A DNA stretch of 8,189 nt, from the NCBI RefSeq assembly GCF_003334305.1, contig NZ_QOWS01000044.1. The stretch is one strand, 5' to 3'. The notes under the pieces are model-generated. The model made no database searches. It had not been told where the DNA came from and saw only the letters and a list, made by a program, of their open reading frames with translations. Positions within the stretch are counted from its first letter, which is position 1. Each line of letters starts with the position of its first letter. This DNA comes from Escherichia coli (GTDB lineage Bacteria; Pseudomonadota; Gammaproteobacteria; Enterobacterales; Enterobacteriaceae). Positions 1 to 112 of the stretch are shown piece after piece. The translations under genes were made by a program, and so were the position numbers.

Positions 1-112
1 GACGGCGCTGTGTCTGGCATGCCTGCAATCCGGGAAACCGGACCAGGAAAAAACTTGCAGGCCATAACAGTATCTACGCCATCTCTGCAATATATTGAAT
101 TTGCGTGCTTTT

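What the first reader, a model, noticed from the sequence alone, without database searches (positions are those of the whole stretch)
21..62. Nested hairpin with a GAAA tetraloop at the window start
Seen directly: outer arms gcctgcaa (21-28) and ttgcaggc (55-62) are perfectly complementary. Inside them is tccgg-GAAA-ccgga (29-42), a GNRA-type tetraloop hairpin, followed by an A-rich tract. No ORF covers this region. It could be a transcript 3' end or stability structure for the upstream gene, or part of a small RNA; the window starts too close to tell.
Basis: seen in the sequence. Interest (0 to 1): 0.25.

Follow-up and report, generated by a model that had tools for sequence, protein, structure and literature searches.

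The report
Hairpin in IS621 right end
The hairpin is real, but it lies inside the right end of the well-studied mobile element IS621; its second arm is the -35 box of the promoter that forms when the element circularises, so the region is largely already explained.

Summary
The nested hairpin at 21-62 exists exactly as described and is stable (RNA -19.5 kcal/mol, z -4.3).

**Where it is.**
- Window 1-75 is the last 75 bp of an IS621 copy (IS110 family, bridge-RNA recombinase) inserted in a REP element next to rnpB.
- The sequence is identical to the published IS621 right end (RE).

**What the 3' half is.**
- The 3' arm TTGCAG (55-60) lies 17 bp from TATTAT in the left end once the element circularises. 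This is the published sigma-70 junction promoter that drives the bridge RNA.
- The A-rich "loop" (48-53) sits just upstream of the -35 hexamer, like an UP element.

**What the 5' half is.**
- The 5' arm and inner hairpin belong to a ~95-nt non-coding module that also holds an upstream hairpin, H1, cut by the window edge. H1 is a minus-strand intrinsic terminator.
- The module occurs only in an enterobacterial subclade. 53 other relatives have an RE of 8-17 nt.

**Comparative evidence.**
- Stems are conserved and loops vary, so the GAAA loop is not conserved as GNRA.
- The outer stem shows no compensatory change.
- Pairing to the -35 recurs in two other arrangements.

**Function.** The hairpin's own role is unproven. 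Most likely it is a structured spacer or insulator between the transposase gene and the junction promoter. The element is already known; interest is low.

The parts
1..75 (+). Last 75 bp of the 107-bp non-coding right end (RE) of IS621. The whole element is L001 1797-3075, 1279 bp.
   Evidence: An IS110-like IS621 transposase CDS ends 33 nt before the window. IS-free E. coli genomes match only window 74-110, and other IS621 copies match only 1-77/79. The sequence is identical to the RE listed in Durrant et al. 2024, Supplementary Table 1.
1..11 (-). Loop end and 3' arm of hairpin H1 (ACAGCGCC-TGAC-GGCGCTGT, L001 2992-3011), cut by the window start. On the minus strand it is followed by TTTTTTT, making it an intrinsic terminator that faces transcription entering the element from the right.
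   Evidence: It is the only terminator-like site called in L001 1700-3500 apart from one inside the CDS. One G-C to A-U compensatory change is seen in the Klebsiella elements. Pair probabilities are 0.93-1.0.
21..28 (+). 5' arm of the outer stem (GCCTGCAA). It is part of the lineage-specific module.
   Evidence: It varies in relatives (GCCTGCTA, GCCTGTCA, GGCTGAAA) without compensation on the other arm.
29..42 (+). Inner hairpin TCCGG-GAAA-CCGGA.
   Evidence: The stem is kept in 52 of 55 cells across 11 distinct elements (counted by hand on the sequences). The loop varies: GAAA, GAAC, GGAGG, AATA, AACC, GAG, GTG, GTA.
43..54 (+). A-rich tract (A6 at 48-53) immediately upstream of the -35 hexamer. 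It is a probable UP-element-like part of the junction promoter.
   Evidence: Conserved at this position in all module-bearing elements. It is already present inside the CDS tail of the enterobacterial short-RE relatives (GAAAATGC-TTGC..). The UP-element reading is inference from the published proximal-subsite consensus.
55..62 (+). 3' arm of the outer stem. Bases 55-60 (TTGCAG) are the -35 hexamer of the circle-junction sigma-70 promoter.
   Evidence: TTGCAG, a 17-nt spacer and TATTAT appear when the RE is joined to the LE. TATTAT lies 6 nt before the published bridge-RNA 5' end. PMC11208160 states that the -35 box is in the RE and is lost in a 22-bp donor. TTGACN sits at the same distance from the end in 53 relatives.
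63..75 (+). Promoter spacer and donor left half. ACAGTAT (67-73) pairs with the bridge-RNA left donor guide. CT (74-75) is the core dinucleotide where strand exchange occurs.
   Evidence: The donor specificity ACAGTATCTTGTAT is listed in the supplement of PMC11208160. The terminus is invariant in about 64 distinct relatives.
76..110 (+). Host DNA to the right of the insertion. The left part of the split REP lies before the element at L001 1770-1796.

Best explanation
**Shown.**
- The hairpin lies in the right-end non-coding region of an IS621 copy.
- Its 3' arm (55-60, TTGCAG) is the -35 hexamer of the sigma-70 promoter. That promoter exists only after the element excises and joins its right end to its left end (-10 TATTAT). 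It drives the 177-nt bridge RNA and the recombinase gene.
- The A-rich 'loop' (48-53) lies directly upstream of the -35 hexamer.
- Both of these parts are ancestral. They occur in relatives where the transposase reading frame runs through them to within 8-17 nt of the element end.
- The 5' arm (21-28), the inner hairpin (29-42) and the upstream hairpin H1 belong to a ~95-nt insertion. It is found only in an enterobacterial subclade. It moved the stop codon about 100 nt away from the end.

**Inferred.**
- The module works as a structured spacer or insulator.
- H1 stops transcription that enters the element antisense from the right-hand flank. In this window that transcription could come from rnpB read-through.
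- On sense transcripts that read out of the transposase gene, H1 and the 21-62 hairpin fold into two stable stem-loops.
- These stem-loops would give the message a nuclease-resistant 3' region.
- They would also separate translation and read-through transcription from the junction promoter and the donor site.
- The A-tract probably acts as an UP-like contact for RNA polymerase.
- The module is not needed for recombination itself.
For: **Identity.**
- The transposase annotation is, the element boundaries, and the length of 1279 bp.
- The RE, LE and bridge RNA are identical to the published sequences.

**Promoter.**
- TTGCAG-17-TATTAT is the best-placed sigma-70 match on the joined RE+LE.
- The published text says the circle reconstitutes a sigma-70 promoter across RE-LE with its -35 box in the RE.
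- TTGACN is fixed 15 nt from the end in 53 distinct relatives.

**Module.**
- Only IS621 and elements from Pseudescherichia, Superficieibacter, Phytobacter and Klebsiella carry it. All others have an RE of 8-17 nt.

**Selection on structure.**
- Stems are conserved while loops and spacers diverge.
- The 8-bp pairing has p about 0.004 to 0.03, and is not reached in any of 54 module-less elements.
- The Phytobacter-type elements carry a second, closer arm that pairs with the -35 segment, reaching 12 bp in L194.
- L209 has an unrelated module in which GCCAGC pairs with its own -35 region GCTGGC.
- The three or four one-sided changes give G-U on the plus strand.

**Other points.**
- H1 is called a minus-strand terminator.
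- A 22-bp donor recombines when the bridge RNA is supplied in trans, and the cryo-EM donor was 44 bp. So the hairpin is dispensable for catalysis.
Against: - The outer stem shows no compensatory base change. Its 3' side is invariant because it is promoter DNA, and changes in the 5' arm simply break pairs.
- The extra arms in the Phytobacter group are themselves degraded in two of three sequences, which looks like drift.
- The hairpin is not followed by a U-tract, so it is not a canonical terminator on the sense strand.
- H1 has only a G/U-rich tail on that strand.
- Most family members manage without the module.
- No transcript-end or expression data were available.
- The strand on which the structure matters is not settled, because all pairs in IS621 itself are Watson-Crick.
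Confidence: 0.45

Rival explanations
1. The hairpin has no function of its own. The -35 hexamer and the A-tract are promoter DNA. The complementary 5' arm is a by-product of how the module arose, for example by local direct or inverted duplication of the promoter-proximal sequence. It persists by descent.
For: - The 3' half is fully explained by the promoter and predates the module.
- There are no double-sided changes in the outer helix.
- The 5' arm decays in the Klebsiella and Phytobacter elements, and the extra Phytobacter arm decays in L005 and L213.
- The dinucleotide-shuffle p value is only 0.027.
- The module is absent from most relatives and patchy even within the clade.
Against: - Stem positions are far better conserved than loops and spacers across elements whose transposases are only 72-85% identical.
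- Pairing with the -35 segment appears in three different arrangements.
- No module-less relative reaches 8 bp.
Confidence: 0.3
2. The relevant molecule is the minus-strand RNA. Transcripts that enter the right end from the flank, or start divergently at the circle junction, fold the complement of 21-62 and end at the H1 terminator. This yields a short antisense or sRNA-like product and protects the transposase gene from antisense transcription.
For: - H1 plus U7 is a canonical terminator only on the minus strand.
- The minus-strand fold shows hairpin 2' followed by the terminator hairpin (-40.4 kcal/mol, z = -3.2).
- rnpB and its repeats are transcribed towards this end in the window.
Against: - No sigma-70-like promoter was found in the region on either strand.
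- The one-sided substitutions give G-U on the plus strand, which would be A-C mismatches on the minus strand.
- The published small-RNA-seq of an RE-LE plasmid reports a peak only over the LE.
Confidence: 0.1
3. It acts as DNA. The inverted repeat around the A-tract would be a protein-binding site or an extruded structure. It would modulate access to the -35 box, or help the recombinase or a host factor act on the right end. A variant is that it folds in a single-stranded circular intermediate.
For: - The DNA hairpin is stable.
- The 5' half TG.CTG..ATCCG is invariant in sequence.
- A 2025 preprint reports single-stranded circular intermediates for another IS110 element.
Against: - The distance between the arms varies (8, 10, 11 and 26 nt) among lineages. 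That does not fit a dimeric binding site, and it makes cruciform extrusion unfavourable.
- A 22-bp donor suffices for recombination.
- A top-strand single-stranded circle has no template for the bridge RNA.
Confidence: 0.07
4. It is part of an independent small-RNA gene carried in the right end, analogous to Ssr9 downstream of the ISPpu9 transposase gene.
For: There is a precedent for an accessory sRNA module downstream of the transposase gene in an IS110-family element (PMC12288879). The module also has a patchy distribution.
Against: - No promoter-like site was found and no Rfam match.
- The repeat scan of the element found no second copy of the end sequences bracketing the module, so there is no MITE-like unit.
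- The module is never found apart from the element in E. coli genomes or plasmids.
Confidence: 0.03

Closest known systems
IS621 right end and its circle-junction (RE-LE) sigma-70 promoter (Durrant et al. 2024, PMC11208160; Hiraizumi et al. 2024, PMC11208158)
   Same: The sequence is identical. The -35 box is in the RE, the -10 box and the bridge RNA are in the LE, and the core dinucleotide is CT. The element is inserted in a REP.
   Different: In the passages I searched in the papers held, no secondary structure in the RE was mentioned. The pairing of the -35 segment with 21-28, H1, and the clade-restricted nature of this ~95-nt spacer came from the analysis here.
Junction promoters of other circle-forming insertion sequences (IS911, IS2, IS30, IS492), from general knowledge of IS biology
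   Same: A -35 box in one end and a -10 box in the other form a strong promoter only in the excised circle.
   Different: In those elements the -35 box lies in a terminal inverted repeat. No hairpin that includes the -35 box is part of that description.
Ssr9 / MITEPpu9 module downstream of the ISPpu9 transposase gene (PMC12288879, PMC8450116)
   Same: It is an accessory non-coding module between the transposase gene and the right end. It is present in only some IS110-family elements and is dispensable for transposition.
   Different: Ssr9 has its own promoter and terminator. It is flanked by copies of the element ends and moves on its own. ISPpu9 makes no junction promoter. None of this is seen here.
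Intrinsic terminators and REP-type 3' stabiliser hairpins
   Same: These are stable G+C-rich stem-loops just after a stop codon. H1 fits the terminator pattern on the minus strand.
   Different: Hairpin 21-62 lacks the U-tract. Its stem resembles the REP stem only in GCCTG/CAGGC, and it does not change with the REP targeted by relatives.
GNRA tetraloop hairpins
   Same: IS621 has a GAAA loop closed by a G-C pair.
   Different: The loop is GAAC, GGAGG, AATA, AACC, GAG, GTG or GTA in relatives. No receptor or tertiary context is evident.

Membership tests
IS621 (IS110 family) right end | Lies directly downstream of a DEDD/Transposase_20 (IS110-type) transposase gene | tested here: met
   A CDS annotated as IS110-like element IS621 family transposase ends 33 nt before the window. 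The protein is 99% identical to the IS621 cluster, which carries PF01548 and PF02371.
IS621 (IS110 family) right end | Sequence identity to the reference IS621 RE | tested here: met
   The RE string in Supplementary Table 1 of PMC11208160 equals L001 2969-3073, which includes window 1-73.
IS621 (IS110 family) right end | Element boundary at ACAGTAT-CT, supported by empty sites | tested here: met
   IS-free genomes align from window 74 onwards, and other copies align up to 77/79. The element is 1279 bp.
IS621 (IS110 family) right end | Insertion at a CT core inside a REP sequence | tested here: met
   The left flank reads gcctgatgcgctacgcttatcaggcCT and the right flank begins acgcc.
Circle-junction sigma-70 promoter | A -35-like hexamer in the RE, 16-18 bp from a -10 hexamer in the LE, once the ends are joined | tested here: met
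   TTGCAG (window 55-60), a 17-nt spacer and TATTAT.
Circle-junction sigma-70 promoter | Transcript start consistent with the promoter | tested here: met
   The published 177-nt bridge RNA begins AGUGCAG, 7 nt after TATTAT.
Circle-junction sigma-70 promoter | Promoter activity that depends on the -35 box | not testable with these tools
   Literature only. A 22-bp donor that lacks the -35 box did not support recombination unless the bridge RNA was supplied in trans.
UP element (proximal subsite) | A-tract at about -46 to -38 that contacts the alpha C-terminal domain of RNA polymerase | tested here: inconclusive
   An A6 run lies at about -42 to -37. It is conserved in all enterobacterial relatives but absent in distant ones, which have a better -35 (TTGAC). 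There is no binding or activity test.
Intrinsic terminator (for hairpin 21-62) | G+C-rich stem followed within 2 nt by a U-rich tract | tested here: not met
   Not called on either strand. Only H1 is called, on the minus strand.
GNRA tetraloop motif | GNRA loop conserved among homologues | tested here: not met
   Loop sequence and length vary from 3 to 5 nt.
Conserved structured RNA | Compensatory base changes that support the helices | tested here: inconclusive
   - Outer helix: 89.8% paired, with no double-sided change.
- Inner helix: one G-C to U-G change.
- H1: one G-C to A-U change.
- Only 11 distinct sequences were available.
Any Rfam family | Covariance-model match | tested here: not met
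   There is no hit in the RE at the gathering threshold or at E up to 10. The only sub-threshold hits near the element are REP-derived naRNA4 matches and a weak ES036 match, all in the flanks.
MITE-like sRNA module (Ssr9 / MITEPpu9 type) | Module bracketed by copies of the element's end sequences and found on its own | tested here: not met
   The repeat scan of the element found no second copy of the terminal sequence bracketing the module. The RE sequence occurs only as part of IS621 in E. coli genomes and plasmids.

The most novel reading that the evidence does not exclude
The 21-62 hairpin, together with H1, would be a selected third non-coding component of IS621-clade bridge-recombinase elements. 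It would be a cis-acting structure that sequesters the -35 segment in read-through RNA, or in a single-stranded intermediate. It would thereby gate or insulate junction-promoter-driven bridge-RNA expression and so couple the element's transcriptional state to its mobility.
Probability: 0.12. Interest if true: 0.45.

Novelty: already known. Interest (0 to 1): 0.2.

Why it matters
IS621 is the founding bridge-RNA recombinase now being engineered for genome editing. Its right end has been treated as a promoter half plus a donor half.

If the conserved hairpins between the transposase gene and the -35 box really insulate or tune the native junction promoter, that would add a small regulatory layer to the element's life cycle. 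It would also explain why one enterobacterial subclade acquired a ~95-nt spacer that the rest of the family lacks.

As it stands, the finding mainly re-identifies a published sequence. It does not open a new question of general importance.

Tried and rejected
1. **Rfam.** Searches at the gathering threshold and at E up to 10 found nothing in the RE.
2. **Similarity to the bridge RNA.** The hairpin resembles two bridge-RNA segments: TGCCTGCAGTCCG (LE) versus TGCCTGCAATCCG (RE), and an inverted match of 17 nt. Both are about what chance gives in 1.3 kb. Neither is kept in relatives whose LE reads GCCATGCAG. I rejected them as a duplication or a pairing interaction.
3. **REP mimicry.** GCCTG..CAGGC resembles the REP stem, but the hairpin does not change with the different REP targets of relatives. 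Rejected.
4. **Guide-like internal loop.** The loop is the conserved promoter A-tract and does not covary with the target or donor. Rejected.
5. **MITE-like or Ssr9-like module.** There are no duplicated ends and no solo copies.
6. **Metagenome pattern scan.** The viral-contig scan returned only identical IS621 copies.
7. **E. coli polymorphism.** Active copies are nearly invariant. The 94.9% variant belongs to a frameshifted dead copy, so it is uninformative.
8. **Choi et al. 2003.** The original IS621 description is not in the held library.
9. **Longer transposase homologues.** Those checked (336 and 357 aa) for other RE modules have short REs.

Full report
**1. Observation**

- gcctgcaa at 21-28
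- tccgg-gaaa-ccgga at 29-42
- ccaggaaaaaac at 43-54
- ttgcaggc at 55-62

Folding results:
- As RNA, the 42-mer folds into exactly this nested structure: -19.5 kcal/mol, 84% of the ensemble, z = -4.27 against dinucleotide shuffles.
- As DNA it gives -12.3 kcal/mol and z = -4.69.
- In 300-400 nt of native context nearly all pairs keep probabilities of 0.9-1.0.

The statement that no ORF covers the region is only loosely true. Frame 1 is open from base 1 to 150, and a mechanical 46-aa ORF spans 10-150. That ORF crosses a mobile-element boundary and is not annotated.

**2. Where the hairpin is**

The window carries RNase P RNA on the minus strand at 430-806. It matches E. coli chromosomes at 100% identity.

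In an identical genome, an 'IS110-like element IS621 family transposase' gene ends 33 nt before window base 1.

Boundary evidence:
- Genomes without the insertion align only from window 74 onwards.
- Other IS621 copies align only up to 77-79.
- The element therefore ends at window 75, with the CT core at 74-75.
- On the left, the element starts after a REP sequence...ttatcaggcCT|tgtattat.
- This gives a 1279-bp element with a 191-bp left end (LE), a 981-bp CDS and a 107-bp right end (RE).

The RE, the LE and the 177-nt bridge RNA listed in Supplementary Table 1 of Durrant et al. 2024 are identical to this copy. Window 1-75 is therefore the distal part of a published sequence.

Distribution in E. 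coli:
- The RE is present in 1679 of 5426 complete genomes, with a median of 8 copies.
- This particular junction is present in about 1257 genomes.

**3. What the 3' half is**

Joining the RE to the LE, as in the excised circle, gives TTGCAG (window 55-60), a 17-nt spacer and TATTAT. TATTAT lies 6 nt before the first base of the published bridge RNA.

Durrant et al. state three relevant things:
- The circle reconstitutes a sigma-70 promoter across the RE-LE junction.
- Its -35 box is in the RE.
- A 22-bp donor loses that box.

In 53 distinct relatives, a TTGACN hexamer sits at exactly this distance (15 nt) from the invariant terminus ATAACAGTATCT. It often overlaps the transposase stop codon.

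Enterobacterial relatives have a weaker hexamer (TTGCNN) preceded by an A-tract. This holds even when the region is still coding sequence.

The UP-element reading of the A-tract is my inference from its position.

**4. What the 5' half is**

Most relatives (50-83% protein identity) have only 8-17 nt between the stop codon and the end.

Only these elements carry a ~95-nt insertion:
- IS621
- elements from Pseudescherichia, Superficieibacter, Phytobacter and Klebsiella
- a few metagenomic relatives

The insertion supplies:
- a new stop codon
- hairpin H1 (ACAGCGCC-TGAC-GGCGCTGT, half of it cut by the window start)
- the 5' arm plus the inner hairpin of the finding

On a neighbour-joining tree the module is patchy within one enterobacterial clade. 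This implies either several gains, or losses and recombination. I could not resolve which.

H1 is the only terminator-like site near the end, and it faces the minus strand, with a stem followed by TTTTTTT.

**5. Is the hairpin selected?**

Evidence for selection:
- Across 11 distinct module-bearing right ends, stems are much better conserved than loops and spacers.
- The inner stem is kept in 52 of 55 cells, while its loop takes eight different forms of 3-5 nt.
- An 8-bp complement to the -35 segment is found in 0.4% of mononucleotide shuffles and 2.7% of dinucleotide shuffles. It is found in none of 54 module-less elements.
- The Phytobacter group has a second, closer arm that pairs with the -35 segment, reaching 12 bp in L194.
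- L209 has an unrelated module whose GCCAGC pairs with its own -35 region GCTGGC.

Evidence against selection:
- The outer helix has no double-sided change and its 3' side never varies. Changes in the 5' arm just break pairs.
- The extra Phytobacter arm is degraded in two of three sequences.
- H1 has one clean G-C to A-U compensation.
- The few one-sided changes give G-U on the plus strand, but there are only three or four such events.

The GAAA loop is clearly not conserved as GNRA.

**6. Mechanism**

The identity and promoter assignments are shown. The function of the hairpin itself is inferred.

My preferred reading (about 0.45) is that the module is a structured spacer or insulator:
- H1 blocks transcription entering antisense from the flank. 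Here that could be rnpB read-through.
- On sense read-through RNA, H1 and the 21-62 hairpin form two stable stem-loops.
- These stem-loops protect the 3' region of the transposase message.
- They also uncouple translation and transcription of the gene from the junction promoter and the donor site.

The module is not required for catalysis. A 22-bp donor recombines when the bridge RNA is given in trans, and a 44-bp donor was used for cryo-EM.

Rival readings:
- The main rival (0.3) is that the complementarity is a by-product of how the module arose.
- Minor rivals are a minus-strand RNA role, a DNA-level role and an independent sRNA gene.

**7. Comparison and novelty**

The closest known entity is the thing itself, the IS621 right end and its junction promoter.

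- The ISPpu9 Ssr9 module is a functional analogy only. Its defining features are an own promoter, duplicated ends and solo copies, and these are not met here.
- Nothing in Rfam matches.
- In the passages I searched in the bridge-RNA papers held, no structure in the RE is mentioned. The hairpin and the clade-restricted spacer therefore appear to be a small undescribed detail of a known element.

I rate the element as already known and the interest as low (0.2).

Noticed in passing
window 173-452: A tandem array of 2.5 copies of a 113-bp unit (94% matches) lies immediately downstream of rnpB. Each unit holds a hairpin followed by a T-run (aaacccgccgaagcgg-tttttt). From memory this matches the repeated 3' flank of rnpB described in the 1980s. 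I did not check that against a paper.
   Followed up: partly
window 1-11 (L001 2992-3011): Hairpin H1 is cut by the window start. It is a canonical intrinsic terminator on the minus strand (stem followed by TTTTTTT), placed 15 nt after the transposase stop codon. It shows one G-C to A-U compensatory change in Klebsiella elements.
   Followed up: yes
window 107-157 and L001 1737-1795: REP elements flank the insertion. They give sub-threshold Rfam hits to naRNA4 (31.4 bits against a gathering score of 59.5). IS621 has split one REP of a cluster that lies between yhaC and rnpB.
   Followed up: partly
window 1-110: About 1257 of 5426 complete E. coli genomes share this exact IS621/host junction. 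It is therefore either an old, vertically inherited insertion or a strong hot spot.
   Followed up: no
L209 1237-1344: A relative with 76% protein identity has a right-end module of similar length (108 nt) but unrelated sequence. It has duplicated A-tracts and a GCCAGC/GCTGGC hairpin over its own -35 region. On the minus strand that hairpin is followed by CTCTTTTTTT.
   Followed up: partly
ends of loci L023-L081: In most distant relatives the transposase stop codon TGA lies inside the -35 hexamer (GCT-TGA-C), 15-17 nt from the element end. Coding sequence, promoter and donor site therefore overlap within about 25 nt.
   Followed up: partly
L208 1382-1781: A 95%-identical IS621 variant has its right end interrupted after the first 4 nt (AAAT) by unrelated sequence that looks like coding sequence. 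It is probably another insertion or a rearrangement.
   Followed up: no
L001 463-1650: In the matching genome, yhaC, upstream of the IS, is annotated as a pseudogene with an internal stop. This lies outside the window.
   Followed up: no
window 7216-8015: This is the prlF-yhaV type II toxin-antitoxin pair, with overlapping stop and start codons at 7551. The rest of the window is the gar cluster: garK, garR, garL, garP and garD, followed by the start of agaR.
   Followed up: yes
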